In this document: piece after piece, positions 1 through 12,894 of the stretch
Position numbering within the stretch: the first letter of the stretch is position 1
Layout: the number at the start of each line of letters is the position of its first letter
NCBI GenBank assembly: GCA_030668825.1
Contig: DAOVET010000076.1
Location: 1-12,894, forward strand
Source: Candidatus Heimdallarchaeota archaeon
GTDB lineage: Archaea; Asgardarchaeota; Heimdallarchaeia; Heimdallarchaeales; Heimdallarchaeaceae
Direction of reading: 5' to 3'
DNA length: 12,894 nucleotides
Notes under the pieces: generated by a model
Databases searched by the model: none
What the model saw: only the letters and a program-made list of their open reading frames with translations
What the model was told of the DNA's origin: nothing
Program-made: the position numbers and the translations under genes

Positions 1-2
1 CA

Positions 3-155
3 ATATTGGTCAATCTTATAATCTCATTCATCAGCTTCTTTATGATTTTCAATGCACTATATCAAGAACCATTTTACGGTTTAGGTGTTCTTCCTGCTTA
101 TGGTGTTTTTACTAAAAAAAACTCGAAGAGAATCAGGAAAATTATGAAAAGATAA
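3..155 (+). CDS. 5'-truncated membrane protein with C-terminal YG motifs; probable paralog of the next gene and candidate rSAM substrate
   Basis: Not in the ORF track. My translation from base 3 is ILVNLIISFISFFMIFNALYQEPFYGLGVLPAYGVFTKKNSKRIRKIMKR*, with TAA at 153-155. It has a hydrophobic helix, then FYG (72-80) and AYGV (96-107), then a basic tail. Confidence 0.8.
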   Translation: MLVNLIISFISFFMIFNALYQEPFYGLGVLPAYGVFTKKNSKRIRKIMKR

Positions 156-169
156 AGGTGTTTTTCCAT

Positions 170-673
170 ATGAATGAAGAAAAATTAAATGAAGTAGGAG
201 CATTAACAGAAGTAGATTCTAAGGATATAAATAAGAACAAGATTAGAAAGAAAATTACCTTAGTATATTATTATCTTATACAACTAGGATTTTTAGCAAT
301 CTCAGGATTTATTGGATTTTTATTTGGTTTATATAAGGACACAAATTCTACTTATCCCTTTAGTAGTTTTGATCAAAGTTACATTTTCGGACCAATTTTC
401 ATAGTAATTGCACAAGGAGGAAATTTAGGACTATCTTACGGTATGAGAAAGAAAGACAAATTAATTTTGAAAAAAGGGGTAAATATTAGGCTGTCTCCTT
501 TCTATGTATATCCAGCTGTTTTTCTAAATTTTGTTTTATCGGTATTCTTCTTCTTATCTATCTATCATATAATGGTTTCTGGGAATGCTTTCACAGCTAC
601 AACTAGATATGGTGTATATACTAGAAAGAAAGCAACATGTAATAATCTTGCTAGTAGGAGTAGTTATGTATAG
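170..673 (+). CDS. Small ~3-TM membrane protein with C-terminal RYGV motif; candidate rSAM substrate
   Basis: ATG at 170 follows AGGTG (156-160), so it is preferred over GTG 158. Three hydrophobic segments. RYGVYTRKK (from 605) lies just after the last helix. The stop overlaps the rSAM start (ATGTATAG, 666-673). Confidence 0.8.
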   Translation: MNEEKLNEVGALTEVDSKDINKNKIRKKITLVYYYLIQLGFLAISGFIGFLFGLYKDTNSTYPFSSFDQSYIFGPIFIVIAQGGNLGLSYGMRKKDKLILKKGVNIRLSPFYVYPAVFLNFVLSVFFFLSIYHIMVSGNAFTATTRYGVYTRKKATCNNLASRSSYV

Positions 674-1730
674 ACTAGACTGTGCGATTTGGGAACTTAC
701 CTTAGCTTGCAACATGCGTTGTAAACATTGTGGTTCAAGTGCAGGAGAAGCTCGAAAAGACGAACTTTCTTTAGAAGAGTGCTACAAATTATGCAGAGAA
801 CTTGCAGATGAAGGATGTAATTTAGTTACTTTGATGGGTGGTGAACCATTTGTTAGAAAGGACTGGAATCAAATTTCTTGGTGTATTAAAGACCTTGGAA
901 TGGACCTAGGGTATGTAACAAATGGACTATTGGTCCCTAAAATTATTGAAGACCTAACATTACTTGAACCACTGGTTGTCGGTATCTCTTTGGATGGTGT
1001 AAAAGAAACTCATGATAGTATCAGAAGAGAAGGGTCTTATGATTCCGTAATTAAGGTACTGGGTCTTCTGGAAGAAGCAGGTATTCAGATCACTGTAATT
1101 ACAACCCTAAGTAAAACTAATTTCAAAGAATTGCACAGTATAAAGGAGATTATCCAGGATAGAAAAGTCAATTGGCAGTTACAAATAGGTTTACCTTTTG
1201 GTAATTTTGATCCTGAACTCACTCTGAGTTTAGAAGAGTTTTATGCATCTGCAATGTTTATCACTGCTGAGGGATTTAAAAACAAATTCGATCATATGCC
1301 TGTAGTTGGAGCGCATTGTTATGGATATTATTCACATCTTCTTCCTAACAACAAGAATTGGAAGGGATGTACAGCTGGTATAAATACAATAGGCATAACA
1401 TCTGATGGTTCGATAGTAGGATGTTTATCAATGGGTAACGATAAATTTATTGAGGGAAATATCAGAGATCGTAATTTCTCAGATATCTGGAATGATCCTA
1501 ATTCCTTTGCATACAATCGGCAATTTACTAGAGCAAACTTAGGTGAGAATTGTGTTAATTGCTTATTTGGTGAAACCTGTAAAGGGGGCTGTAACTCCAC
1601 TTCTTATCATCTTAATCAAACTTTTCATAACACAGCTTACTGTTTCAAGCAAATTGAAGAAAACCTCTTTGATGCAAAACAATACCGTAAAGAGATCAAG
1701 TGGTTAAAACAAAAGGGAGTTAAAACTTGA
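666..1730 (+). CDS. Radical SAM/SPASM peptide/protein maturase, PlpX (splicease)-like
   Basis: CxxxCxxC (CNMRCKHC, 708-731), GGEP and SLDG motifs, plus SPASM cysteines Cx17C...Cx2Cx5Cx3Cx16C. Start moved to ATG 666 because AGGAG lies at 656-660. The blocks WELTLACN..C.HCGS.AG, WQLQ...PFG, GYY and WKGCTAG...GI..DG.I.GC.S match my recollection of PlpX. The rSAM/SPASM call is firm; the subfamily call is less so. Confidence 0.92.
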   Translation: MYRLDCAIWELTLACNMRCKHCGSSAGEARKDELSLEECYKLCRELADEGCNLVTLMGGEPFVRKDWNQISWCIKDLGMDLGYVTNGLLVPKIIEDLTLLEPLVVGISLDGVKETHDSIRREGSYDSVIKVLGLLEEAGIQITVITTLSKTNFKELHSIKEIIQDRKVNWQLQIGLPFGNFDPELTLSLEEFYASAMFITAEGFKNKFDHMPVVGAHCYGYYSHLLPNNKNWKGCTAGINTIGITSDGSIVGCLSMGNDKFIEGNIRDRNFSDIWNDPNSFAYNRQFTRANLGENCVNCLFGETCKGGCNSTSYHLNQTFHNTAYCFKQIEENLFDAKQYRKEIKWLKQKGVKT

Positions 1731-3013
1731 TGATAAAACTTAATCTAGGCTGTGGTGTTTTTTATAAACCTGGATATATCAATATTGATTTATCAGAAAA
1801 CGATGTTGCTGACGAGATACAGAATGTCGCTAATCTTAAGTTTGAATCTAATAGTGTGGATGTCATAGAAGCATCCCATATTCTCGAACACTTCGATATT
1901 ATTCATCTTCCATACGTTCTTGCAGAGTGGTTTAGAGTACTAAAAACGGATGGAGAATTGTACATTGAAACGCCAAATCTAGTGAAATCTATTATTTCTT
2001 TGAAGCCTAAAAGCGATGAGTCAAAGAAACTCACATACCGATTTCTATTCGGCATTGATTTTGAAGGAAATGTCCACAAAATAGGTTTCACTACTCGGTT
2101 TTTGAAGAAATATCTTATTTCTACTGGTTTTACTAAGATATCCAAACAAAAACAAAAAAGCTTCAAATCAGAGAAGAGTATAAGGTACTGCTGCAAGAAA
2201 CCTGCAGAGATTCCACTGACTAACACAAAATTCCTGATAAATTATTTCAGAATACTAATTAAAACTCAATTTGGTTTATTAGATACTCTCTTTTTAGATC
2301 ACTGTGAGTCAAATTGTATAAGTCTTTTCAACAAATTAAAACTAAAAAATGACATGAATAATTTGAGTGATGAATTATGCTTAGAACTAATAGCTTCATT
2401 AACACTTTTTAGTCCTAAGGTTGCTAAAATCTTCGTTGAGCTCTTCTCAGACAATTTACCAACTCACATAAATATTGATGTATTATATTATTTGGATTCT
2501 ATTGATTTCTCCTCAAAAATGTATGAGAATTGGAAGAGCTGGAGAAAAAATAAAGATAAACCAAAATATGATGTATTCTTTTTCTATAATCATTGGATTT
2601 CAAAAATAAAGAAAAGTTTGTTATCAGAAACTAAGATTGATGTCATGTATAATTATATTGAATCAGTGGAAAGAAGCGAGTATGATTACTTTTGTTTTGA
2701 GCTAGTAGATATCTTATCTCTCAGAAAATCTAATCAAGGCTTACGATACTTCTCAAACAAGAATTTTGAAAAAGCAAAAGAATTATTCTTAGAAACCTTG
2801 AAACTTCAACCCTATGATCCTGTTTCAAACTGGAATCTAGCTAGATTATCAAAAAATTCTGAGAACAAAGAGAAGCTGCTCATATATTATAAACAAGCAA
2901 AGATGAATGCCTTATCACGTGAGCATAAGAAGAAAATAAAAAAGGAGATTCATCTCTTGAAGAATGGTAATGAAAAACTAATACCACTAGAACCCATACA
3001 AATCAGATTCTAG
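1730..3013 (+). CDS. Class I SAM-dependent methyltransferase with C-terminal TPR-like repeat
   Basis: KLNLGCG motif I, GYINID, SVDVIEASHILEH and WFRVLKTDGELYIETPN. The C-terminal segment GLRYFSNKNFEKAKELFLETLKLQPYDPVSNWNLARL is TPR-like. ATG 1730 overlaps the rSAM stop (TGATG). Confidence 0.88.
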   Translation: MIKLNLGCGVFYKPGYINIDLSENDVADEIQNVANLKFESNSVDVIEASHILEHFDIIHLPYVLAEWFRVLKTDGELYIETPNLVKSIISLKPKSDESKKLTYRFLFGIDFEGNVHKIGFTTRFLKKYLISTGFTKISKQKQKSFKSEKSIRYCCKKPAEIPLTNTKFLINYFRILIKTQFGLLDTLFLDHCESNCISLFNKLKLKNDMNNLSDELCLELIASLTLFSPKVAKIFVELFSDNLPTHINIDVLYYLDSIDFSSKMYENWKSWRKNKDKPKYDVFFFYNHWISKIKKSLLSETKIDVMYNYIESVERSEYDYFCFELVDILSLRKSNQGLRYFSNKNFEKAKELFLETLKLQPYDPVSNWNLARLSKNSENKEKLLIYYKQAKMNALSREHKKKIKKEIHLLKNGNEKLIPLEPIQIRF

Positions 3014-3175: not shown

Positions 3176-4474
3176 TTGTTTAGAGTGGAGAAAGTTTCCT
3201 TCAGAGAATCAATTAAGAACATGAATTATAATGTCAAATTGGTTTTTCTTTTCTCATTTTTCACATCATTTGGGAGAGGAATTTGGATGGGTAATGTGCT
3301 GACAGCATACATCTATTTCTTCACAAATAAATCCAATATTATTGTTGGTCAGACCTCTTTAGCTATGGGACTGACCATGACTGTTTTTGTTCTTCCTTCT
3401 GGTTATTTTGCAGATAAAATTCGTCGAGACATTCTATTAAAAATCGCTTCAGTTGTTGGAGTGGTTGGTCTTGTAGTTATTCAATTTGGCAATACCATTA
3501 CAACCATCTTCGTCGCTCTTGCTTTGTGGGGGTTGTTTCAAGCTCTAACTAGACCTTCTTTAGAATCTATTTTTGCAGATTCTGTTGAATCAGGAAAGAG
3601 AACGAAAGTCTATTCCTTGGTACACTTGGTCAGGCAATTAGCTCAAGCAATTGGACCCTTTGCTAATGTTCTTTTCTTCCTTTGGCTTGGTAATGAATGG
3701 ACACTCAAGAATATGAAAAACGTAATGCTTATTGGAATTCTAATCACTTTTATATCCATTATAATTATGGTGTTTTTCAAAGACAATAAAAGTCTAGGGA
3801 GTTCAAGTGAATCCATTGAAGAAAATATGGTAGAGACAGAAGAATTGAAACATAATGGGCTTTCATCAAGGTTGTCTGTTAGTAGAGCAACTAAGCTTAT
3901 TCCATATCTTTTGGTTGGTTCAAACATTATAATTGGAGTAGGTGCTGGTATGACGATCAAATATTTTCCCCAGTTCTTTATAGAACAATATCATCTAGAA
4001 CCTATTTGGGTTCAGATAATTATGGGTCTGACAGCTATTTTCACAGGATTATTGGCACTTCTTGCACAAAAGTTTTCTGTAAAACGAGGGCGACCACTAA
4101 TAATTTTCTCTGTTCAACTCATAGCTACACTTTGTTTATTTGGAATAGCATTCTACCCAAACATCTGGCTATTAGTACCTCTGTTTATAACTAGGGGAGC
4201 ATTGATGAATGCAGGTCAACCCTTGAGTAGATCGATTCTCATGGATGTAGTTCCGAAAAATAAAAGAGGAAAATGGAATTCTTTGGAAACGCTGGCGTGG
4301 GGATTTTTTTGGAACTTCTCAGCTTTGATAGGTGGTTATATAGTAGGTGACATTGATCCCAGATTTTGGTTAGTCTTTGTAGTAACTGCTTGTGTTTACC
4401 TTGTTGGAATCATTCCTCTCCTGTTCCTAATTCCTCTTGTAGGCAAGGAAAAATACGCGGAAAAAGGCACCTAG
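3176..4474 (+). CDS. Major facilitator superfamily (MFS) transporter
   Basis: About 12 hydrophobic segments in two halves with a hydrophilic linker. Motif A-like SGYFADKIRR in the first half and SVKRGR in the second; ILMDVVPKNKRGK near the end. Exact start uncertain (TTG 3176, or a slightly later GTG/ATG). Confidence 0.92.
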   Translation: MFRVEKVSFRESIKNMNYNVKLVFLFSFFTSFGRGIWMGNVLTAYIYFFTNKSNIIVGQTSLAMGLTMTVFVLPSGYFADKIRRDILLKIASVVGVVGLVVIQFGNTITTIFVALALWGLFQALTRPSLESIFADSVESGKRTKVYSLVHLVRQLAQAIGPFANVLFFLWLGNEWTLKNMKNVMLIGILITFISIIIMVFFKDNKSLGSSSESIEENMVETEELKHNGLSSRLSVSRATKLIPYLLVGSNIIIGVGAGMTIKYFPQFFIEQYHLEPIWVQIIMGLTAIFTGLLALLAQKFSVKRGRPLIIFSVQLIATLCLFGIAFYPNIWLLVPLFITRGALMNAGQPLSRSILMDVVPKNKRGKWNSLETLAWGFFWNFSALIGGYIVGDIDPRFWLVFVVTACVYLVGIIPLLFLIPLVGKEKYAEKGT

Positions 4475-4729: not shown

Positions 4730-5338
4730 ATGAAAAGAAAAACTGCTCTTCTAACATTTGCATTACTAGCAGTCATTCTTCCTACAGTTGTTTCTGGATC
4801 CCCTTTCTATTATGTTCCTAACACAATGATTGAAGATATGAAATATGGTTCATTTTCAGTAATTGTTGAAGAAGGGTTCTATTTCCTGATTTTTGATAAC
4901 ACAGGATATATAACAGATAACTATACTAGGGTTGATTCCTATGTTATCTTCACTCTGGACTTCGAAGAAAAAGGTATGAGAGATATAAATGCTCAGAAAT
5001 CAGTAAAAGCTGGCGAATATACTTTCATCTCTTTCAATTTTGATGTATCTGGAATTTTTGTCACAGAATGCGATTTTGAAATGACAGCTTCTGAGAGAAT
5101 ATCTGCCTTTCTAACTGATTCTACTGGTTTAGCAGAATACTTTGAAGAGACAGCTGATCTTACTCAAGACCAAAGACGGCAAGAGATAATATTAGTCTCT
5201 AGCATTAGTTCAAGCATTGTAGCAGCTTTATTGATAGTAATTATTTCTATGCGATATAGACTTATTTGGCGAATCAAAAAGAAATACCAAACATATCGAA
5301 ACAAAAAAGCTGGAAGAAGATTCAAAAATATAGGATAA
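4730..5338 (+). CDS. Secreted, C-terminally membrane-anchored protein with a beta-rich (GOLD/p24-like?) domain
   Basis: Signal peptide MKRKTALLTFALLAVILPTVVSG, GFYFLIFDN motif, C-terminal TM helix and a strongly basic tail. Good SD. Confidence 0.8.
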   Translation: MKRKTALLTFALLAVILPTVVSGSPFYYVPNTMIEDMKYGSFSVIVEEGFYFLIFDNTGYITDNYTRVDSYVIFTLDFEEKGMRDINAQKSVKAGEYTFISFNFDVSGIFVTECDFEMTASERISAFLTDSTGLAEYFEETADLTQDQRRQEIILVSSISSSIVAALLIVIISMRYRLIWRIKKKYQTYRNKKAGRRFKNIG

Positions 5339-5343
5339 AAAAA

Positions 5344-6621
5344 CTATTTTGTGGATTTAGGTTTTGTTTTAGCAGGAGTTTTTGGAGTCTTCTTTCCAAA
5401 GATTCTTTCACCATTTTCCACAAAAGTTTTAGTTATTTTTTCTCTCAATAATAGAGCTTGATCGTGATTAAAGAAAATATGTGTATGAATATTGAACAGC
5501 GGTTTCCTTATTTTAGCAATTTTTGGAGGTAGTAGCAATAGTAGATCATTACTTGAGAAGTTCTCATCTATTTCTAGAACTTTTCTAAAATCACTTAGCT
5601 TAAGTTTTATCCTTTCAGTTAATTCAATGAAACGATTTGCTTTCAATTCATATTCAGTCATTTTCTGCTTAATCAAAAAAGCATCATATTTTTCTTGAAT
5701 AACAAAAGTGAACCACTTAGCTTTCCTTACTTCCTTCAGAACAGCACCATAACGAGTGAATTCTAAACTCAATTGTCTCTTTAGTTGGAGCTGTTTTAGG
5801 AGGAAAATTGTCTCTTCTAAAGAAATGCCTATATCAAGTGCAACAGTTGTTAAATTAACATCCTCTTCGAAATTGAGTGAATTTATGATTAGTTTTCTTT
5901 TAGCTTTTCGAACTATTGAAGGACGTATGAAAACATGATAGAGAAGCCAGAAAAATTGTATGAATAAGACACCAGTAATTATAGCTAAATATCCTGAGAA
6001 TGTGTGATATTTTCTCCATTCCAATTCTGCAGGAGAACCAGCTATGGCTTTTCTGAATAGCGAGTTTTTTATTGTTTCTTTCTTTGTTAAGAGGTATGTC
6101 TTCAGCACTATGTGGCTAACAAAACAATAATTCATGAACACATACATTCCTATAAGAAAACCAATAGCAGGTACTGAGTAACCATATGAACTAGGGGCAT
6201 CGGCTAAAGGAAAAGCTAGAGTAATTAATGCAGCTATACTTAGAAATCTGACAATATATATCTTACCTCTATGAGTTGAATCCAAGCCAAAAATATAGAA
6301 GTAAGTATTAAGCAATGCTAGAGCTGGAATTGCAAAAATTAATACTAATGTCCATGGATAGGGGGAATGAATGATATATATCCATCCATCATAATAAACA
6401 TTGAAGAACAAATCGGGGGCTACACTCATTAAACTAAAACAAACAATTATTAGAACAAGAATTGCACTTTCAGATAAGAATAAGTAAAATGGAAATTTTC
6501 TTTTTTTCACTGGAGCATCTGCTAATTGTTGTTTATTATTGTTTGGTTTTACAACAACTTTACCGTTTTCTATTTCTTTCAATTTCGCACTAGGAATAGA
6601 CTCTTCATTCTTAGCGGTCAT
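5344..6621 (-). CDS. Multi-pass membrane protein with cytoplasmic putative winged-helix region
   Basis: About 5 hydrophobic segments, then a soluble region with a wHTH-like pattern (VNLTTVALDIGISLEETIFLLKQL) and a Lys-rich tail. 425-aa open frame. Confidence 0.8.
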   Translation of the reverse strand: MTAKNEESIPSAKLKEIENGKVVVKPNNNKQQLADAPVKKRKFPFYLFLSESAILVLIIVCFSLMSVAPDLFFNVYYDGWIYIIHSPYPWTLVLIFAIPALALLNTYFYIFGLDSTHRGKIYIVRFLSIAALITLAFPLADAPSSYGYSVPAIGFLIGMYVFMNYCFVSHIVLKTYLLTKKETIKNSLFRKAIAGSPAELEWRKYHTFSGYLAIITGVLFIQFFWLLYHVFIRPSIVRKAKRKLIINSLNFEEDVNLTTVALDIGISLEETIFLLKQLQLKRQLSLEFTRYGAVLKEVRKAKWFTFVIQEKYDAFLIKQKMTEYELKANRFIELTERIKLKLSDFRKVLEIDENFSSNDLLLLLPPKIAKIRKPLFNIHTHIFFNHDQALLLREKITKTFVENGERIFGKKTPKTPAKTKPKSTK

Positions 6622-6640
6622 GAGAATAAAATTTCAATCA

Positions 6641-6650
6641 TTATATATAA
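6641..6650 (-). promoter_or_regulatory. TATA box for the minus-strand gene (probably leaderless transcript)
   Basis: Palindromic TTATATATAA lies 20-29 nt upstream of the ATG at 6621; no SD is visible. Confidence 0.55.
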
Positions 6651-6686
6651 AGGCATGTAAATAAAGAAACCGCAATACTGTTTAAA

Positions 6687-6706
6687 GGCGACTAATTGGC
6701 GACTAA
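6687..6706. repeat. Tandem 9-bp direct repeat GGCGACTAA-tt-GGCGACTAA; candidate operator
   Basis: Perfect copies at 6687-6695 and 6698-6706 (11-bp period) in the divergent intergenic region. Confidence 0.6.
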
Positions 6707-6731
6707 AAAGTTTCGTTTTTGCTTTCACAAG

Positions 6732-6739
6732 TTTAAATA
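6732..6739 (+). promoter_or_regulatory. TATA box TTTAAATA for the gene at 6769
   Basis: Consensus-like archaeal TATA about 30 nt upstream of the ATG. Confidence 0.5.
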
Positions 6740-6768
6740 TGAAAGTCTATATTATGGAATGAGCAGAC

Positions 6769-8610
6769 ATGGCTAACGTCTACTATAGAACATTCATCAT
6801 ATTGGCAGTGATTAGTATCTCATCTCTTGGATATAATACTAATCATGGTCATCTCGGGTCAAGTCTGCTCGCCCACTCGTATAACTCATCACACACACAG
6901 GAAGGGGTGCTTTCACACCACTTAGGTGAGGACCTGGTCTTCAACTATACAGACTCTTTTACAGAAAGCACCTAAAAACTATCCTTAACAAGTCTAAAAT
7001 TAACATATCACAATGAACTTAACACAAGTTTCTTAGTTGAAGGTGATAGTTCTACTAGCTCTGGTATTTCTATAACCTTCAATTTCGACACAATAGCTGT
7101 TAATCTTACGGTTGAAAGGTATTTTCAAGATAACCAAGTTCACTCATTAACTCAAGGATTTTTTGTAGGTGAACCTATTGTAAAGGATTTCATTGTTAAT
7201 ATTACAATCTCAGGAGAAGCAGGATTTGGAAAAAGTGGTTCTATCACTGTGTATGCAACAAGTTTCATTTCCAACATTCCTATGATAGATCTTTCTGAGG
7301 AACAGAAAATGCTGTTTATAACTCCAGAAAATTTACTTTTTGAGGGAGAAACGTTTGGAACCAAAGAAGTCACTGTACTAACTGTTATTAGTAATTCATT
7401 CAATGATTCATATAATTTAGAACTAAACCTGGAATTTCTAGTTAATGATTTTCAATCTTTTACAAAAGAAGTTATTCTAACCACAAATTCTACTGAGCTT
7501 GCAAGGAGTAATTTCGCTGATAATCAATTGAATAATCTCGATTTTCAATTGGATATAGAGCAAGGTTATTTTCCATTATACATAACTTTTCACGTAGAAA
7601 TTAGTAGTGATTTAGTGGAAATTAGCGATATTCAACTATCAGCTAAAATTAATGAGATAACCACAAATAAGGATATTTTTTGTGAAGCTAACTGGATCGA
7701 TGGAATCGATGAGAACATAGATATTTCGTTCTTCAAACCACAGTCTGCTCTCTCAGAACAGATATTAAATATCTCATTCTTTTCCAGTTTCGAAGGAAGT
7801 ATTGTCTATTCAGGAATAGGCTTTGAAATAAAACAAGGAAGCACTTTGCTCGCTTATGGAACGATTTCAATCAATAAACAGAATGGAGAAATTCAACTCA
7901 TTATAATAGATACCTATACATTAAATTATCAAGATGACCTGTACATCAACTTTCAAGCGGATGTTTCAGGCTCAGGAACTATCAAAATCTACAGTTCAAC
8001 AACAATCGAAATAAGAGATATCCTTCATGTAGATACTGAAATTCATCAGATGCAGTTTGAGGAATCTCTTGTGTTCGAAACACCATCTTATGGATCGATT
8101 GCTCTATTGTTTTATGATGTTATATTTATCGAAAATGCTTCTGTTGAGTATAGAAATGATTTTCTCATGGAATTCTCTGTATCTGACTATAATTTTGATA
8201 GCTTAACTTTGACTTGTTATGTCAATGATATAGCTACTTATACGAAAACTTTCCGAAATCCAGGAGATGTTCATGTTTCAGAAGAAGTTACCTTTACAGA
8301 AGGAATTAATGAATTAAACTACATTCTAATTATTCTAGGTGGAGGATCGGAAATAACTATTGGAAATATGAGATATTCATTACAACAAATAACCGGATCC
8401 GAGAACGGTGTATTTCCTACAGGAGGTATAGATATTCCTTTCTTCCAATTGCCAAAGAACTTTTTTCTAGGGGTGTTTGTCCTGTTTGATTGTTGGTTAG
8501 TAATGGGAATAATGTTGAGAATTTATAAAGGTCGCAAATTGAGAAAGAGTAGACAAACAGAAAATGACGAGTTTATACTTGAAATTGCTCAGATGTCTCA
8601 AGATTACTAA
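6769..8610 (+). pseudogene. Large cell-surface glycoprotein (signal peptide, C-terminal TM anchor) interrupted by one in-frame TAA; pseudogene or sequence error
   Basis: Track ORFs 6769-6975 and 7249-8610 are in the same frame. After TAA 6973-6975 the frame stays open (KLSLTSLKLTYHNELNTSFLVEGDSS...GSITVYATSF), giving 614 codons in total. Signal peptide at the N-terminus, many N-x-S/T sequons, acidic beta-rich body, TM helix followed by RIYKGRKLRK. Confidence 0.8.
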
Positions 8611-8667
8611 AGAGCACATCAAAATTTTCATCCTTTTTATATGAAATTGATTATAATATTTATAGAC

Positions 8668-10134
8668 ATGGCGGTTAATACATTTGCATCCACTCTTTTA
8701 GGTAAACTAAAAAAGTTTGGAAAAAATCAGAAGGAATCAATCAAGGAAAACCTTTGTACTAAAGGTGAGTTACCTTTGTTAGTGCAGATTTTTGGAGCAG
8801 TTTTTCTTTGGTTTCTTCTATTCATAGTGTTCGTGACCATAATTACACCAACTCAAAGATGGATTGTAGCTTTGGTTGCTGTAATAGTAGCATCTGGCTT
8901 TGTTCAGGGTTTGAATTTCATTGGACGAAAACTGGTTCTTAAGGATTTCAGAGAAGAGGAATTTCCAGAAATTAATTCGCTTGACTTAACTGATAATTCA
9001 ATTTTAATAGGGGAGGAGTTTCAACAGGGTGGATTAGTATTATCTCAAAAAGTTAGAGGAAGATATCACCTCACACCTATAGTTGCTCTCAAAATTGATT
9101 CCATTTCTTCCTCAACATCTTCAATTTTCAGCTCGATATCCAACATTACTCTACAAAAATTAAGTCTAAAATATCATTGCAGCATTATTGACACTGCTAA
9201 ATATGAAATTCTTCTCCTGAAAGGACAACCAAAAAGCTCTAAGCACACTTCATTATTCATTACCCTTCAGATTTTAGAGGAGAGCTTTTTCCAGAAAGTA
9301 TTCGATATTTTGACAGAGTTTACAAGAGAAAAAAAGATTTCATTCGAGAAGCTTGATCAGAGTGTATTGAAAGAGATTTTTCCTCTATATGAAAACGTAC
9401 TTTATATTTCACAAAATAGAGAACAAATACAAACCGTTCCAGAATCAGCAGATATAATCGATAGTAATCCAGATGATCAAGATGATCGAGATGAAAGATT
9501 TGTGGAATTTCTAGTTAAAGAAAACAATAAAGACTCCACTGAAGAAACTGTAACTGTTAAAGAACAAAGTAATGTCATCATTCTAGACAAAGTTGATGAA
9601 AAGCAATTGATTGATTCGGAACAAGTGAATCAAGAATCAGATTCAAACCAAAAAGAGATGATCAAAAATATTCTTTTAGGTGAACTAAATTTTTCTATCG
9701 ACAGTTTTCTTTCAGCTGCTAGAGGTTATTACAAGAAGGCTATAGAAACAGCTCTAGAAACTAAATATAAAGCAAATACAGAACGTTTCTTGAAAACTGT
9801 TCATCTCTATTGCGAAAGAGAAAATATTCCTTTTTATTATCCATCATATTCTTATCTTCTCAAAATTGTTGAATTTCTAGATATAGAACTGCCATCATCA
9901 ACAGAAATTGAGAATTTCGTAGATAGATTATCTGAAGAATATACTTCAATCTCAATAGATGATGAGAACAAACAGAAATTAAGCACTTTTCTAGAGTCGA
10001 AATTCAAAGATTCACAAGATAATCCAAATGAATCAGTCAAGAATTTAGATGAAGCAGCGGATATCTCTTCAATTCCACAACCACCTGCAGCACGAAATAC
10101 CAAAAAGGAATTACTAATAGATGGAGGAGATTAA
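8668..10134 (+). CDS. Hypothetical protein with 2 N-terminal TM helices and a large acidic cytoplasmic region
   Basis: Long open frame with two hydrophobic segments near the N-terminus. ATG 8668 is preferred over 8641 because of the TATA-like TTTTATAT at 8635-8642 and the AGACATGGC context. Confidence 0.8.
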   Translation: MAVNTFASTLLGKLKKFGKNQKESIKENLCTKGELPLLVQIFGAVFLWFLLFIVFVTIITPTQRWIVALVAVIVASGFVQGLNFIGRKLVLKDFREEEFPEINSLDLTDNSILIGEEFQQGGLVLSQKVRGRYHLTPIVALKIDSISSSTSSIFSSISNITLQKLSLKYHCSIIDTAKYEILLLKGQPKSSKHTSLFITLQILEESFFQKVFDILTEFTREKKISFEKLDQSVLKEIFPLYENVLYISQNREQIQTVPESADIIDSNPDDQDDRDERFVEFLVKENNKDSTEETVTVKEQSNVIILDKVDEKQLIDSEQVNQESDSNQKEMIKNILLGELNFSIDSFLSAARGYYKKAIETALETKYKANTERFLKTVHLYCERENIPFYYPSYSYLLKIVEFLDIELPSSTEIENFVDRLSEEYTSISIDDENKQKLSTFLESKFKDSQDNPNESVKNLDEAADISSIPQPPAARNTKKELLIDGGD

Positions 10135-10791
10135 ATGATAGAGGATATATTCTTACTTGAGATTATCGAGTTTTACTTGAAATTCTGGTTAATTTCTCTC
10201 GCAATGAGATGGATGTTATCTTTTCTACCTGGGAGAATTTTCGATTTAATACGTTTCACAGGCAACTTAGCTAGATATCCAGTTAAACGCTTATTGTACC
10301 TTATCTATGGTGTTCAAATTCTTGAAACAGATTTTGAGAAATCATTATTCAAAACAGAGGAAGTTGATGATTTTGATTGCAGAATTACTTCAAATGTAAT
10401 CGCACCACTTCTCATATTGACTTATGTTGGTTCATTCATTCTGTACTGGGCAGATGTATTATATGACACAAAATACACATGGATAAGTATTATACTGTTT
10501 GTTCTAGGTTTCGCAATCATATTAATGTCAGCTCCAGATTTTCGTGAAGCTGAAGAATTACTCAAAACTAATCTAAAATCGATCTTCAAATGGTTCGCAA
10601 AACTAGTCTTTCTCGCACTTCCAACGTATTTCATTTTACACTACTTTGTCGGGATTGATGCTCTATCACAAGGAGTGTTCTTCATTCTACTATTAATCCC
10701 AGTCTATCATCATAGAAGAAAAAATGTTGGAGAAAAATGGGTTAAATCGAAAAAAGCAAAAGTTTTAGAGGTTGACCCTTTTGGAGAATGA
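10135..10791 (+). CDS. Multi-pass membrane protein, possibly a degenerate M50-like metalloprotease homolog
   Basis: GGAGG at 10123-10127; the ATG directly follows the upstream TAA. About 5 hydrophobic segments and an IAPL motif, but no HExxH. Confidence 0.75.
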   Translation: MIEDIFLLEIIEFYLKFWLISLAMRWMLSFLPGRIFDLIRFTGNLARYPVKRLLYLIYGVQILETDFEKSLFKTEEVDDFDCRITSNVIAPLLILTYVGSFILYWADVLYDTKYTWISIILFVLGFAIILMSAPDFREAEELLKTNLKSIFKWFAKLVFLALPTYFILHYFVGIDALSQGVFFILLLIPVYHHRRKNVGEKWVKSKKAKVLEVDPFGE

Positions 10792-11857
10792 ACATAAACT
10801 CAACGAAATTGTAGATGAACTTTTGAAAGATGTTGAATCTACATTAGGGGAATTAGAGAAAAACTTTAAGCTAAATCAAGTAAGTGAAATTCACACACAA
10901 GAACAAGTAGAGATAGAAGAGAAACACAAGTTTCCATATCCAAGTGTGAGATATCCAACCTCAGATCAGAATTTCAAAGATAACCAGCAATTAACCACTA
11001 ATAGAAATATGACAACTGTTGTTGACACCTCTAAAACAGATAAAGAGAAGATAGAGGAGAAAAACATCAAAGCTGATGATAAGATTGATATAAAAGATTA
11101 TGAAAAAACCCCAATTGTTCAAGACATACCATCTGTTCCAAAGGAAAGGATTAGCTCTGTTAAACATAGCATCATACAATATTCTGAATCATTGGCAACT
11201 GAGGAAAAACTAGATACAGAAGAACTGATGTCAGAAGAAGAGGCATATTATCTTGATATAAAGAGAGAAATAAGGCTAGTACACATTTTTGGACCTCCTG
11301 GTTCAGGCAAAACAACTATTGGAATTCAAGCGTCTATTGAAATAGTTCCGAGAAAAACATATTATTTTATTACTAGTCATGGAACATCAGTCCTTAAACG
11401 AGTAAAACAGATGATATCTGACGAACGATGGTCAGATTTTACGGGAGTAAAACAGAGTTTCTTCCCTATAGAAATCACAAATTTAGACGAGTTAGAAATC
11501 CAACTAGACAAAATAGCAACACTTCATCCAGAAGAGTTAGGGATGATAGTTATTGATCATATAACAGATTATTGTAGGGGGCAGATATACCAAGAAGAAA
11601 AACGAATACAACTACGAAATATTTTAGAGAAACTCTACCTTCTAGCTGACGAGAAAAAATGTAAAGTATTGCTAATTAATGGTTTTTCTTACAAGGATTC
11701 AGCACCTGCAGAGGATATAATTGAATCATTCTGTGATATGACAATTAAAATGAAAATAGAAGATTTTAAATCGAAACTACTGTTTCAAGAAGAAGAGATT
11801 GAATTAGCAGTCGACAATTCAGGGATTTCAAATCTTCATCTGAATATCTACTACTAA
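10772..11857 (+). CDS. RecA-superfamily (RadB-like) P-loop ATPase with long acidic N-terminal extension
   Basis: Walker A in LVHIFGPPGSGKTT (GPPGSGKTT at 11291-11317), Walker B MIVID (11543-11557), and RadB-like spacing of LYLLADEKKCKVLLIN. The start may be TTG 10781, downstream of GAGGT. Confidence 0.82.
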   Translation: MTLLENEHKLNEIVDELLKDVESTLGELEKNFKLNQVSEIHTQEQVEIEEKHKFPYPSVRYPTSDQNFKDNQQLTTNRNMTTVVDTSKTDKEKIEEKNIKADDKIDIKDYEKTPIVQDIPSVPKERISSVKHSIIQYSESLATEEKLDTEELMSEEEAYYLDIKREIRLVHIFGPPGSGKTTIGIQASIEIVPRKTYYFITSHGTSVLKRVKQMISDERWSDFTGVKQSFFPIEITNLDELEIQLDKIATLHPEELGMIVIDHITDYCRGQIYQEEKRIQLRNILEKLYLLADEKKCKVLLINGFSYKDSAPAEDIIESFCDMTIKMKIEDFKSKLLFQEEEIELAVDNSGISNLHLNIYY

Positions 11858-11912
11858 TAATCAACTTTCTTGTCCTTTTAAATGAATTAAAGAATATATT
11901 ATTAGAAAAGAC

Positions 11913-12407
11913 ATGGCTTTAACAACTGAACAAGATTTAGTTGATTCCTTAGCCACAAAGTGGTTATCAGAAAAAAAATTCGTTGTCACTGAACTAACTA
12001 TTCCTATTATTCATCAAATTTATTATGACGATTACTTGGAGGGAAGAGATTACGTCAGGATAGATTTAGCAGCTTTTGACCAAGTGACTGGGGAGGTTAT
12101 TTTTGTTGAAGCTGAAAATGGTTTGTATTTACAGCATCCTCAGATCTATCTTCCTTTTTGCCATTCTCTTTATATTCTCTGTCCAGAAGACCATTCTTCT
12201 TTCCGAGATGAACAAGTAGATTGGAGTAAAAGTCAAGGTATAGGTATTATTGAGAAGAATAAAAATGGAAAACTGATTTTTTCCTTAGATCCCAAATCTA
12301 GAAAAATTAATCCAGCAGTTGAAGCATTTGTAAAATCACGACTACTGAAAAAATTTGAGAAGGAGATGAAATCAAATGTCATCATTGATGTCAAAGAAAA
12401 AGCATAA
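11913..12407 (+). CDS. PD-(D/E)XK nuclease-fold protein
   Basis: N-terminal helix TEQDL, then TEL, RIDLAA, IFVEAE, QIYLPFCHSLYILCP and GIGII, a layout typical of small restriction-endonuclease-like proteins. Confidence 0.7.
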   Translation: MALTTEQDLVDSLATKWLSEKKFVVTELTIPIIHQIYYDDYLEGRDYVRIDLAAFDQVTGEVIFVEAENGLYLQHPQIYLPFCHSLYILCPEDHSSFRDEQVDWSKSQGIGIIEKNKNGKLIFSLDPKSRKINPAVEAFVKSRLLKKFEKEMKSNVIIDVKEKA

Positions 12408-12894
12408 AAAATTCTTAGGCTCGAACAAATCCATATATTCCATAAGAAAAGGGGGAAAAGTTACTCTCTACGCTGCATTCATAGTTAAACCACACAAAGA
12501 ATCAACTGAAGAAGCACCAGACAGGAGAAATTACTGGAGGAAAGACCAAGAATTAAATGAAAAACTTCCATCTGTTCTTTCTATATTAACTCAAGTTAAG
12601 AGATTAAAAACATCTCTTCATCGATTATTTCTTCCAGGGAATGTCAAACGCAAAAGTCAATCAATGAACGAAGTTAAGAAAACAGCTGATTCTTCGCTCC
12701 TTGATCAGCTCTTTGAAGAAAAAAACAAGAACATCAATGTTAAGCTATCGTTTTATCTTTTAAAAACATGGAAGCTGTATGATATTTCTGAATCGTTCCA
12801 GACAATAGAGGATTTAGTGGAAGATTTTGTCTATCTTTTAAGAAATGAATTAAAGCAGAAATTAGAAAGTGTTGGGAATGTTGGACGATTATTA
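12376..12894 (+). CDS. 3'-truncated hypothetical protein
   Basis: Not in the ORF track. ATG 12376 follows AGGAG (12361-12365) and the frame is open for 173 codons to the window end (MSSLMSKKKHKKFLGSNKSIYSIRKGGKVTLYAAFIVKP...ESVGNVGRLL). It overlaps the previous gene's end. Confidence 0.8.
   Translation, partial: MSSLMSKKKHKKFLGSNKSIYSIRKGGKVTLYAAFIVKPHKESTEEAPDRRNYWRKDQELNEKLPSVLSILTQVKRLKTSLHRLFLPGNVKRKSQSMNEVKKTADSSLLDQLFEEKNKNINVKLSFYLLKTWKLYDISESFQTIEDLVEDFVYLLRNELKQKLESVGNVGRLL

What the first reader, a model, noticed from the sequence alone, without database searches (positions are those of the whole stretch)
3..3013. Candidate archaeal splicease locus: PlpX-like radical SAM enzyme coupled to YG-motif membrane proteins and a methyltransferase
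Seen: four tightly linked genes (14-nt gap, then ATGTATAG and TGATG overlaps), with XYG-bearing proteins directly upstream of the rSAM/SPASM gene. Established: PlpX-type rSAM enzymes excise a tyramine equivalent from XYG motifs, leaving an alpha-keto-beta-amino acid in the backbone, and such ketoamides can inhibit proteases. Inference: this enzyme shares recognisable PlpX blocks beyond generic SPASM features (WELTL.CN..C.HCGS.AG, WQ.Q...P.G, GYY, W.GC.AG), so it may splice integral membrane proteins in an archaeon rather than leader-peptide precursors. I cannot confirm from the sequence alone that this arrangement is undescribed.
Basis: partly seen in the sequence, partly recalled or inferred. 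Interest (0 to 1): 0.88.

Follow-up and report, generated by a model that had tools for sequence, protein, structure and literature searches.

The report
Archaeal splicease-like membrane-protein maturation cassette
A conserved gene cassette in Asgard and other archaea pairs a radical SAM enzyme, whose closest named relatives cut a tyrosine fragment out of peptide backbones, with a methyltransferase and several small membrane proteins that all end in the same tyrosine motif, so natural backbone editing of membrane proteins can now be tested directly.

Summary
Window 3-3013 holds a cut precursor paralog, a 167-aa three-helix membrane protein, a 355-aa radical SAM/SPASM enzyme and a 427-aa methyltransferase with a helical domain.

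The link between these genes is not chance. In 50 of 53 archaeal loci that hold the enzyme there are 1-8 paralogous small membrane proteins. They were recruited by homology with their last 25 residues removed. Of these, 122 of 127 end in x-Y-[G/N/S/D]-V-[Y/F], against 66 of 1574 other ORFs. The methyltransferase is present in 42 of 69 loci.

The enzyme's best curated matches are the two splicease-type models, TIGR04103 (196 bits) and TIGR03913 (190 bits). Both are far below cut-off. In a tree the archaeal enzymes form their own clade, not nested among those families.

A complex model puts the tail (NAFTATTRYGVYTR) into the conserved barrel (ipSAE 0.64; best control 0.00).

My reading is a RiPP-like system with a leader, membrane helices and a C-terminal core. 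That the enzyme acts on the tail tyrosine motif I put at about 0.85. Tyramine excision is the leading chemistry at about 0.45, and it is unproven.

The cassette is patchy: 62 of 301 Asgard genomes sampled have it. One is the cultured Promethearchaeum syntrophicum. I rate it a new variant of a known kind.

The parts
3..155 (+). C-terminal part of a precursor paralog (last membrane helix plus tail). It is cut by the contig start and its conserved site is AYGVF at nt 96-110.
   Evidence: One search gives the translation; it matches the family profile at positions 103-149, E 7.9e-9; a copy at the end of own-genome contig C112 shares a 21-residue stretch with it, so the assembly broke inside a paralog repeat.
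170..673 (+). 167-aa small membrane protein, the putative substrate. It has an N-terminal leader-like motif (about nt 173-259), three predicted helices that span the membrane region, an invariant Y62-P63, and a disordered C-terminal tail with the site R-Y-G-V-Y (nt 605-619; Tyr147 = nt 608-610).
   Evidence: Searches cover the family, the motif logo and the invariant Y62, P63 and Y147. AF2 model with pLDDT 80.7, helices 3-13, 17-55, 69-94 and 110-137, tail 138-167 of low confidence; no Pfam or NCBIfam match, and every name that a source gives for these membrane-protein homologs is 'hypothetical protein'; no structural match, best E 2.3.
666..1730 (+). Radical SAM/SPASM enzyme of about 354 aa, with the CX3CX2C motif at C16/C20/C23 and a full SPASM cysteine set. 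It is the putative maturase acting on the tail motif.
   Evidence: Pfam; NCBIfam; invariant cysteines; tree; shared blocks; modelled interface.
1730..3013 (+). 427-aa protein with an N-terminal class I SAM methyltransferase domain (about residues 1-160) and an all-helical, partly TPR-like domain (about 165-411). It is a conserved third component. Its substrate is unknown.
   Evidence: Methyltransf_11 E 3.9e-7, TPR_2 E 0.0017; a BLAST hit at E <= 1e-5 in 42 of 69 loci, near full length in most; invariant G7, G9, N18, D20, E53 and H54; model pLDDT 89.3, with generic class I methyltransferase matches at E about 1e-5.
3176..4474 (+). MFS transporter directly downstream. It is probably not part of the conserved cassette.
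   Evidence: MFS_1 E 4e-37; a BLAST homolog in only 1 of 69 loci. Unrelated MFS genes do follow distant homologs of the enzyme.

Best explanation
This is a three-component post-translational modification cassette. The small membrane proteins are gene-encoded substrates built like RiPP precursors. They have a conserved N-terminal cytoplasmic leader-like motif (KLxEIGxxLxVxxxDI), two to three membrane helices, and a short C-terminal core ending [FY][GS]x[AGS][IPTV]-x-Y-[G>N,S,D]-V-[Y/F]-x-[R/K]. The radical SAM/SPASM enzyme takes this tail into its barrel and, by SAM-derived radical chemistry, modifies the invariant Tyr. The most likely reaction is the one catalysed by its closest named relatives, the spliceases. 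[quoted passage not shown] The methyltransferase/helical-domain protein then methylates the product or helps present the substrate. What is shown is gene linkage, motif conservation, family resemblance and a modelled interface. The chemistry, the methylation target, the topology of the tail and the biological role are all inferred. One possible role is a membrane-tethered electrophilic ketoamide acting as a protease inhibitor. My odds: the enzyme acts on the tail motif, about 0.85; the reaction is tyramine excision, about 0.45.
For: 1. Linkage. 50 of 53 archaeal-clade loci hold 1-8 family members. In 38 of 53 loci one member ends within 150 nt upstream of the enzyme gene, and 119 of 127 members are on the enzyme's strand. 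Of the three loci without a family member, two have other ORFs with the motif: L030 has a 65-aa ORF ending ..SYGVYSRK, and L053 has an 85-aa peptide with three ..YGT[VI]S sites.

2. Motif. Tyr is present in all 126 aligned sites, G in 96, V in 112 and Y/F in 112. The residue before the Tyr is hypervariable (L 23, D 22, R 17, M 15, K 14, E 12), as at splice sites. In 148 further metagenomic representatives, 144 carry the motif.

3. Enzyme. Its best NCBIfam hits are TIGR04103 at 196.5 bits and TIGR03913 at 189.9 bits, and the next is 142. More distant bacterial and archaeal homologs score 184-271 bits on the same two models. Their neighbours are Tyr-motif peptides too: Agathobacter ..VMYGTGVRM, a delta-proteobacterial Gly-rich protein with four YG, and Nostoc Nif11 ..ALYGLPP.

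4. Blocks. WQxQ and WxGCxAG are shared with annotated TIGR04103 and TIGR03913 proteins and absent from the TIGR04133, MftC and NirJ rows.

5. Complex model. ipSAE was 0.59, 0.66 and 0.64 (median 0.64) against a best of 0.00 in 3 controls. This mark was reached by 58 of 80 solved complexes and 2 of 110 mismatched pairs. The runs agree in at least 70% of contacts, and the partner's pLDDT is 60-65. The confident partner contacts are residues 139-152 only, which is the motif. 28 of the 45 enzyme interface residues are at least 90% conserved, against 129 of 355 overall. They include N170, Q172, Q174 and 213-222. The tool's own caveats apply: my own alignments were used, ligands rode along, and a score is not binding.

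6. Literature. Spliceases act at XYG, need no leader for catalysis, are activated by a helix, and can splice tags placed in whole proteins (PMC11414181, parts 1-2 read; PMC10533398, passages).
Against: - Scores are far below the curated cut-offs: 196.5 against 725, and 189.9 against 591.75.
- The archaeal clade is separate from the TIGR04103+TIGR03913 clade, and their relationship is unresolved. Only MftC and NirJ served as outgroups.
- 30 of 126 sites have N, S, D or E where known splice sites have G. The papers I could read describe only YG sites.
- The strongly conserved V at +2 and aromatic at +3 are not explained by splicing alone and would also fit a cross-link.
- The archaeal enzymes have an invariant H218-C219 where the TIGR04103 and TIGR03913 rows have N-N/I.
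- No Nif11 or NHLP leader and no PlpY-like gene was seen.
- With three helices and a positive N-terminus and second loop, the tail could lie outside the cell. Modification would then have to precede insertion.
- The leader-like motif made no confident contact in the model.
- There are no experimental data.
Confidence: 0.45

Rival explanations
1. The enzyme acts on the same substrates and the same tail motif but does a different radical chemistry on the Tyr. One possibility is a carbon-carbon or ether cross-link within Y-x-V-[Y/F], such as a three-residue cyclophane from the Tyr ring to the Val beta-carbon, or a Tyr to +3 aromatic link. Another is a beta-carbon modification. The methyltransferase would decorate the product.
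For: V at +2 (112 of 126) and Y/F at +3 (112 of 126) are as conserved as the G, while +1 tolerates G, N, S and D. In the complex model the lowest-error contacts involve residues 148-151, not only the Tyr. The archaeal clade is distinct from the named splicease families and differs in a barrel-lining block. That Omega-x-x cyclophane-forming rSAM/SPASM enzymes exist is recalled from memory, not from a call.
Against: No cyclophane or cross-linking maturase model is among the 25 best NCBIfam hits shown. The lowest of those scores 69.9 bits, and 79 families matched in all, so lower ones were not seen. Hypervariability of the residue before the Tyr is the signature of splice sites. The closest curated models are the splicease-type ones.
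Confidence: 0.35
2. The enzyme makes a small molecule or cofactor, as MftC does from a C-terminal Gly-Val-Tyr, or as NirJ and AhbD do in haem chemistry. The membrane proteins would be scaffolds, carriers or unrelated neighbours, and the MFS transporter would export the product.
For: The tail contains G-V-Y, which recalls the mycofactocin precursor end (recalled from memory). MftC, NirJ and AhbD models match at 120-124 bits. An MFS gene follows the cassette here, and MFS genes follow distant homologs.
Against: The +3 residue is F in 45 of 126 sites and is never C-terminal, since at least 4 residues follow the invariant Tyr. An MftC-type decarboxylation of a terminal Tyr therefore cannot apply. 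No MftA, MftB or haem-pathway genes are adjacent. A homolog of the window's MFS is in 1 of 69 loci. In the tree the MftC and NirJ rows fall outside all the other 56 rows.
Confidence: 0.08
3. The co-occurrence is incidental, and the YG tails are a structural or sorting feature unrelated to the enzyme.
For: The topology is unresolved and no direct data exist.
Against: 50 of 53 loci across Asgard, Thermoplasmatota and DPANN-labelled MAGs keep the linkage. Gene order changes while linkage is kept: family members lie upstream in most loci, and downstream of the methyltransferase in P. syntrophicum. The motif is enriched at 122 of 127 against 66 of 1574. The complex score is 0.64 against 0.00 for controls.
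Confidence: 0.03

Closest known systems
Spliceases of spliceotide RiPPs (PlpX, PcpX, RhaX, RcsX; NCBIfam TIGR04103 'nif11-class peptide radical SAM maturase 3')
   Same: Both are rSAM plus full SPASM enzymes. TIGR04103 is the best curated HMM hit for the window's enzyme. The WE.TL.CN..C.HCGS.AG, WQ.Q, G[YF][YF] and W.GC.AG blocks are shared. The substrate site is x-Y-G with a variable x near a C-terminus. Several precursor paralogs sit beside the enzyme. A model places the site in the barrel, as reported for PlpX, PcpX and RhaX (PMC11414181).
   Different: Identity is 33% (tblastn against the Nostoc plasmid protein), and the score is 196.5 against a cut-off of 725. The archaeal enzymes form a separate clade. 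The substrates are 112-244-aa membrane proteins with their own leader motif, not Nif11 or NHLP peptides. There is no PlpY. The +1 residue can be N, S or D, and +2 V and +3 Y/F are conserved. A 430-aa methyltransferase/helical protein is an obligate neighbour. The hosts are archaea.
TIGR03913 'GDL motif peptide-associated radical SAM/SPASM maturase' with DUF1843 peptides (Azospirillum, Aureibacter)
   Same: It is the second-best HMM hit at 189.9 bits and shares the same blocks. Its neighbours are 2-3 tandem small peptides with x-Y-[G/A/M]. The Aureibacter locus also has a class I methyltransferase right after the enzyme.
   Different: The Tyr site is N-terminal in DUF1843 peptides and the peptides are soluble. 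The enzymes are about 475-516 aa with a C-terminal extension. The window's score is below the cut-off of 591.75. I found no paper in the held library describing their chemistry.
MftC (mycofactocin maturase, TIGR03962)
   Same: It is an rSAM/SPASM enzyme acting on a Val-Tyr at a peptide's end, with 123.8 bits here.
   Different: The cut-off of 265 is not reached. It needs a C-terminal Tyr and MftB, neither of which is present here. It served as the outgroup in the tree.
CrpC/CrpA of Methanococcus voltae (PMC13692751; abstract and outline seen)
   Same: It is an archaeal SPASM rSAM enzyme that modifies a full-size protein encoded next to it. This is a precedent for RiPP-like modification of proteins in archaea.
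   Different: It forms thioether (ranthionine) links on a Cys-rich soluble protein. The tails here carry no conserved Cys. I did not test whether the enzymes are related.

Membership tests
Radical SAM / SPASM superfamily | CX3CX2C cluster motif and the SPASM cysteine set; Pfam PF04055 plus PF13186 above their cut-offs | tested here: met
   PF04055 82.8 bits (cut-off 29.5) and PF13186 36 bits (cut-off 21.5); invariant C20, C23 (C16 nearly invariant), C219, C236, C254, C297, C300, C306, C310 and C327.
Splicease, TIGR04103 (PlpX type) | Score at or above the curated equivalog cut-off (725 bits) | tested here: not met
   196.5 bits; 195.4 bits on the genome, 'over cut-off: no'.
Splicease, TIGR04103 (PlpX type) | Phylogenetic placement inside the clade of recognised members | tested here: not met
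   the archaeal clade of 35 rows (100/99) is separate from the 5-row clade that holds the TIGR04103 and TIGR03913 proteins (100/100). The backbone is unresolved, and only one annotated TIGR04103 member was included.
Splicease, TIGR04103 (PlpX type) | Adjacent precursor(s) with an x-Y-G site | tested here: met
   50 of 53 loci. Tyr is invariant and G is present in 96 of 126 sites; 30 of 126 have N, S, D or E instead.
Splicease, TIGR04103 (PlpX type) | Nif11 or NHLP leader on the precursor and, in type I, a PlpY-like partner | tested here: not met
   no family hit for ORF1 or ORF2; a different leader-like motif. No small PqqD-like ORF was noticed in the loci, but I did not search for one with a profile.
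Splicease, TIGR04103 (PlpX type) | [quoted passage not shown] | not testable with these tools
   Needs co-expression and mass spectrometry.
TIGR03913 (GDL motif peptide maturase) | Score at or above 591.75 bits and DUF1843 peptides adjacent | tested here: not met
   189.9 bits. The neighbours are not DUF1843.
TIGR04133 radical SAM/SPASM with putative lipoprotein | Score at or above 425 bits; associated lipoprotein gene | tested here: not met
   142 bits; it is a separate clade; it lacks the WQxQ and WxGCxAG blocks.
MftC / NirJ / AhbD (cofactor-type SPASM enzymes) | Score above the cut-offs (265, 515 and 500 bits) and pathway genes adjacent | tested here: not met
   123.8, 121.8 and 119.9 bits. 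No mft, nir or ahb genes are in the window.
Three-residue cyclophane (triceptide-type) maturases | Aromatic-x-x site cross-linked by an rSAM/SPASM enzyme (-2 Da) | not tested
   The Y-x-V pattern is compatible. No model of that family is among the 25 best NCBIfam hits shown. The family definition is recalled from memory.

The most novel reading that the evidence does not exclude
[quoted passage not shown] Each paralog would then carry a different alpha-keto-beta-amino acid (from L, D, R, M, K, E and others) as a membrane-tethered electrophilic ketoamide, further processed by a dedicated methyltransferase. As far as I could find, this would be the first natural backbone beta-amino-acid editing of membrane proteins, and the first such editing in archaea. 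It would use a precursor architecture of leader, membrane helices and core.
Probability: 0.4. Interest if true: 0.88.

Novelty: new variant of a known kind. Interest (0 to 1): 0.72.

Why it matters
Tyramine splicing is so far documented for bacterial peptides and for engineered tags. If it happens here, it becomes a natural modification of membrane proteins.

This cassette is a conserved, widespread archaeal system that no database names. More than 1000 enzyme homologs were found, and 445 clusters of substrate relatives at 50% identity. None of the substrate relatives has a Pfam or NCBIfam family.

Splice-type chemistry here would extend ribosomal beta-amino-acid formation to archaea and to membrane proteins. 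It would also give a set of natural, short C-terminal tags with many different residues before the Tyr, together with a compact 340-aa enzyme that lacks an RRE domain. That would be useful for protein engineering.

If the chemistry differs, this is a new Tyr-directed radical modification.

Either way the hypothesis is directly testable by co-expression and mass spectrometry, and in a cultured Asgard archaeon.

Tried and rejected
**Expression.** The look-up of sequencing runs listed no holder on record as RNA. Two runs labelled 'RNA-Seq' and judged 'probably DNA' hold five short contigs of 153-332 nt over parts of the enzyme and methyltransferase genes. I draw nothing from this.

**ESM Atlas look-up of ORF2.** The best score was 0.82, below the level at which a hit means anything.

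**Foldseek of the ORF2 model against the PDB.** There were no matches at E <= 0.001, and the best was E 2.3.

**Foldseek of the methyltransferase model.** It returned only generic class I methyltransferases at E about 1e-5. LahSb, a RiPP C-terminal methyltransferase, was at rank 8. This gives no clue to the substrate, and the helical domain was not matched.

**PDB sequence search with the enzyme.** It found only SkfB (63 bits) and a cytosylglucuronate decarboxylase, so no close structure exists.

**Topology.** Hydropathy found two strong hydrophobic segments in 97 of 127 members and three in 25. AF2 gives three long helices. I could not decide on which side of the membrane the tail lies.

**The MFS transporter as a fourth component.** I rejected this because a homolog is in only 1 of 69 loci.

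**The second YG in each window protein (FYG, SYG) as further sites.** I rejected this because they are not conserved in the family.

**Literature.**
- Scott et al. 2022 (Chem), the survey of spliceases, is not held, and supplements are closed.
- From passages in PMC10849128, it mined 3418 rSAM-SPASM proteins and reported YG-rich neighbours in 189 bacterial genera.
- From a passage in PMC11626197, it detected BGCs 'in bacterial and archaeal genomes'. It may therefore already list this archaeal group, and I could not check.
- Searches for 'spliceotide'+'archaea' (5 papers), 'splicease'/'radical SAM'/'tyramine', 'spliceases', 'Asgard'/'SPASM'/'RiPP' and 'DUF1843'/'GDL motif'/'TIGR03913' showed no listing that describes this cassette.

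**Rows dropped.**
- Of the 77 loci I analysed 69. I left out L005, L052, L062, L069, L070, L073 and L076 because their matches are partial or cut. I also left out L015, whose match lies at the contig start, without a good reason.
- The tree used the window, 45 of the 69 loci, 3 extra paralogs and 9 plasmid-record proteins.

Full report
**What is in the window**

The window is a whole 12,894-bp contig (C125) of a 2.76-Mb, 33% G+C archaeal MAG. Its nearest relatives are Heimdallarchaeota MAGs.

- The end of a small protein (3-155), followed by a 14-nt gap.
- A 167-aa small protein (170-673).
- A radical SAM/SPASM gene, whose ATG at 666 overlaps the previous stop (ATGTATAG).
- A methyltransferase gene, whose ATG at 1730 overlaps the enzyme's stop (TGATG).

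Pfam finds Radical_SAM plus SPASM in the enzyme. It finds Methyltransf_11 plus a weak TPR in the last gene, and nothing in the two small proteins.

**The enzyme**

MftC (124), NirJ (122) and AhbD (120) come next. All are far below their cut-offs.

The enzyme belongs to a large, strongly conserved family. A search found 1074 proteins at E <= 1e-10. The 120 listed are 54-96% identical. Where a source names them, they come from Asgard groups and Thermoplasmatota. The CX3CX2C and SPASM cysteines are invariant in a 24-row alignment.

**Neighbourhoods**

A scan of one genome per species returned 77 loci, of which I analysed 69. I dropped eight partial or cut ones, including L015 without a good reason.

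Next to the enzyme there are almost always tandem small ORFs ending in a Tyr motif. To avoid circularity I recruited this family by iterated profile search on ORFs with their last 25 residues removed:
- 127 ORFs in 50 loci were recruited.
- 122 have Y[GNDS][VTAIL] in the removed 25 residues.
- Three more have it just upstream.
- Among the other 1574 ORFs of 60-300 aa in the same loci, 66 have the loose motif and 2 have YGV[YF]. In the family, 76 of 127 have YGV[YF].

Of the 53 loci in the archaeal clade, 50 have 1-8 members. In 38 of the 53 loci one member ends within 150 nt of the enzyme's start. Two of the three exceptions carry other ORFs with the same site (L030 and L053).

The logo is [FY][GS]x[AGS][IPTV]-x-Y-G-V-[Y/F]-x-[R/K]. 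Y is present in 126 of 126 sites. At +1 there is G in 96, N in 14, S in 8, D in 7 and E in 1. V is present in 112 sites and Y/F in 112. The residue before the Tyr is hypervariable. A median of 9 residues follows the Tyr.

A profile search of 1.84 billion representatives found 445 relatives at E <= 0.001. Of 148 newly listed ones, 144 carry the motif. Close homologs of ORF2 carry no Pfam family of their own, and every name a source gives for these membrane proteins is 'hypothetical protein'.

The methyltransferase/helical protein is found in 42 of 69 loci by BLAST at E <= 1e-5, near full length in most. Its GxG, NID and EH motifs are invariant.

In the cultured Promethearchaeum syntrophicum MK-D1 the order is enzyme, methyltransferase, then three paralogs with YN, YD and YG sites (L012).

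This genome has at least four paralogs. Two more lie at the end of contig C112, and the assembly broke inside a stretch shared by two copies.

**Anatomy of the substrates**

The proteins share an N-terminal motif (KLxEIGxxLxVxxxDI) ahead of the first membrane helix. They also share an invariant Tyr-Pro after that helix and the invariant tail Tyr.

The same N-terminal motif heads soluble 61-85-aa peptides with YGT[VI]S sites. These peptides sit beside paralogous enzymes in two Thermoplasmatales loci that also keep the methyltransferase protein. So the membrane proteins look like RiPP precursors with membrane helices inserted between leader and core.

The AF2 model (pLDDT 80.7) has helices 3-13, 17-55, 69-94 and 110-137 and a disordered tail. 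No solved structure resembles it. Hydropathy and charge do not settle whether the tail is inside or outside the cell.

**Relation to known spliceases**

A tblastn search of plasmid records gave annotated members of the named families:
- A Nostoc TIGR04103 protein beside Nif11 precursors, one of which ends ..ALYGLPP...
- Azospirillum TIGR03913 proteins beside DUF1843 peptides with N-terminal x-Y-[G/M/A].
- An Aureibacter homolog followed by a class I methyltransferase.

The 58-row maximum-likelihood tree shows the following:
- The archaeal enzymes form their own clade (35 rows, 100/99), including the paralogs with soluble peptides.
- The TIGR04103+TIGR03913 clade (100/100) groups with some bacterial and Methanosarcinales homologs (94/86).
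- The branching between these groups and the TIGR04133 group is unresolved.
- Only MftC and NirJ served as outgroups.

The more distant homologs also score best on the two splicease-type models, at 184-271 bits. They sit beside Tyr-motif peptides.

An alignment shows that WQxQ and WxGCxAG are shared by the archaeal family, TIGR04103 and TIGR03913, but not by the TIGR04133, MftC or NirJ rows. The archaeal family has GAHCYGYYS where the others have GNNIGYYG.

So the enzyme works in the same neighbourhood of sequence space as spliceases, and on the same kind of site, but it is not a member of either curated family.

**Enzyme-substrate model**

The job used the enzyme alignment, SAM, three 4Fe-4S clusters and the full-length ORF2 alignment.
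- ipSAE was 0.59, 0.66 and 0.64 (median 0.64), against a best of 0.00 in 3 controls.
- The tool's mark was reached by 58 of 80 solved complexes and 2 of 110 mismatched pairs.
- The runs agree in at least 70% of contacts, and the partner's pLDDT is 60-65.
- The tool warns that its counts hold only roughly with my alignments and ligands, and that a score is not binding.

The only confident partner contacts are residues 139-152 (NAFTATTRYGVYTR). On the enzyme, 28 of 45 interface residues are at least 90% conserved, against 129 of 355 overall (hypergeometric p = 1.4e-4). They include the WQxQ block and residues 213-222. This supports the tail as the substrate. It does not show which atom is attacked.

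**The methyltransferase protein**

The model (pLDDT 89.3) has a Rossmann-type domain (about residues 1-160) and a helical domain (165-411). Foldseek finds only generic class I methyltransferases. Its target is unknown. I infer that it methylates the product or helps bind the leader.

**Distribution**

In an even sample of the phylum, 62 of 301 genomes have the enzyme at E <= 1e-80. Among high-quality genomes the count is 18 of 90. In the window's own genus it is 8 of 22 other genomes. The cassette is therefore accessory and patchy.

The tree mixes Asgard, Thermoplasmatota and DPANN-labelled rows. Contigs binned as Chloroflexia (L051) and Patescibacteria (L021) carry the archaeal-type cassette. 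This could be gene transfer or mis-binning.

**What is known**

From the papers I could read:
- Spliceases excise C8H9NO at XYG sites and leave a ketoamide that can inhibit proteases.
- They were found in hundreds of bacterial pathways.
- They can act without a leader, are activated by a helix, and have been engineered to splice tags in whole proteins.

Sources are PMC11414181 (parts 1-2), PMC11626197 (passages), PMC10533398 (passages), and PMC11002830 and PMC10849128 (passages).

One passage says the 2022 survey found spliceotide clusters in 'bacterial and archaeal genomes'. That paper is not held, so I cannot exclude that this group was already listed there. My five searches showed nothing describing natural membrane-protein substrates or this cassette.

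An archaeal SPASM enzyme that modifies a whole protein (CrpC) was reported in 2026. I saw its abstract.

**Verdict**

That the enzyme matures the Tyr tails of these membrane proteins is well supported by comparative genomics and a modelled interface (about 0.85). That it splices out tyramine is the leading hypothesis but is unproven (about 0.45). A different Tyr-directed cross-link is the main rival (about 0.35).

I rate it a new variant of a known kind, with interest 0.72.

Noticed in passing
window 3176-4474 (+); L057 6804-8003; L083 5173-6432: An MFS transporter follows the cassette in the window. Unrelated MFS genes also follow distant homologs of the enzyme in a Methanosarcinales MAG and in Agathobacter rectalis. 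A homolog of the window's MFS is in only 1 of 69 loci.
   Followed up: partly
own genome C112:10376-11533 and window 1-155: Two more precursor paralogs lie at the 3' end of contig C112, and the last one is cut at the contig end just after its YGVF site. It shares a 21-residue stretch with window ORF1 and then diverges. The assembly probably broke in a paralog repeat, so C112 likely lies upstream of the window.
   Followed up: partly
L053 3343-8680; L054 3581-7724: Two Thermoplasmatales MAG loci hold two to three paralogous enzymes each. Beside them are soluble 61-85-aa peptides with the same N-terminal leader motif and one to three ..Y(Y)GT[VI]S sites. L054 also has the methyltransferase/helical protein. 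This looks like a classical RiPP version of the same system.
   Followed up: partly
L057 about 4817-4936; L060 and L061, same position: Methanosarcinales- and Nanoarchaeota-labelled loci have a conserved 37-40-aa peptide (..GFSSIY[S/A]C..) just upstream of a distant homolog of the enzyme. The enzyme is followed by a 229-259-aa methyltransferase of another type, and in L057 also by an MFS-like gene.
   Followed up: no
window ORF2 residues 62-63 (nt 353-358): A Tyr-Pro pair after the first membrane helix is invariant in all 112 aligned family members, as conserved as the tail Tyr. Its role is unexplained.
   Followed up: no
L051 (binned as Chloroflexia); L021 (binned as Patescibacteria): Contigs assigned to bacteria carry the archaeal-type cassette: the enzyme at 46% and 57% identity, the methyltransferase protein, and small proteins ending ..LYDVFSR or ..KYNVYSRG. 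This is either gene transfer or mis-binning.
   Followed up: no
window 4730-12894: The rest of the contig encodes proteins with no Pfam family at E <= 0.01: 202, 425, 453, 497, 164 and at least 173 aa. Several have hydrophobic ends. There is also a 218-aa membrane protein with only weak sub-threshold Pfam hits (LrgB-like, E 3e-4) and a 361-aa P-loop protein with weak AAA_25 and KaiC matches (E 1e-5 and 2e-4, below cut-off) at 10772-11857.
   Followed up: partly
The genome search rows G298, G211, G119, G296, G120, G257, G254 and G269: Eight of the 65 listed enzyme matches in the phylum sample contain 1-3 in-frame stop codons. They may be decaying copies or assembly errors.
   Followed up: no
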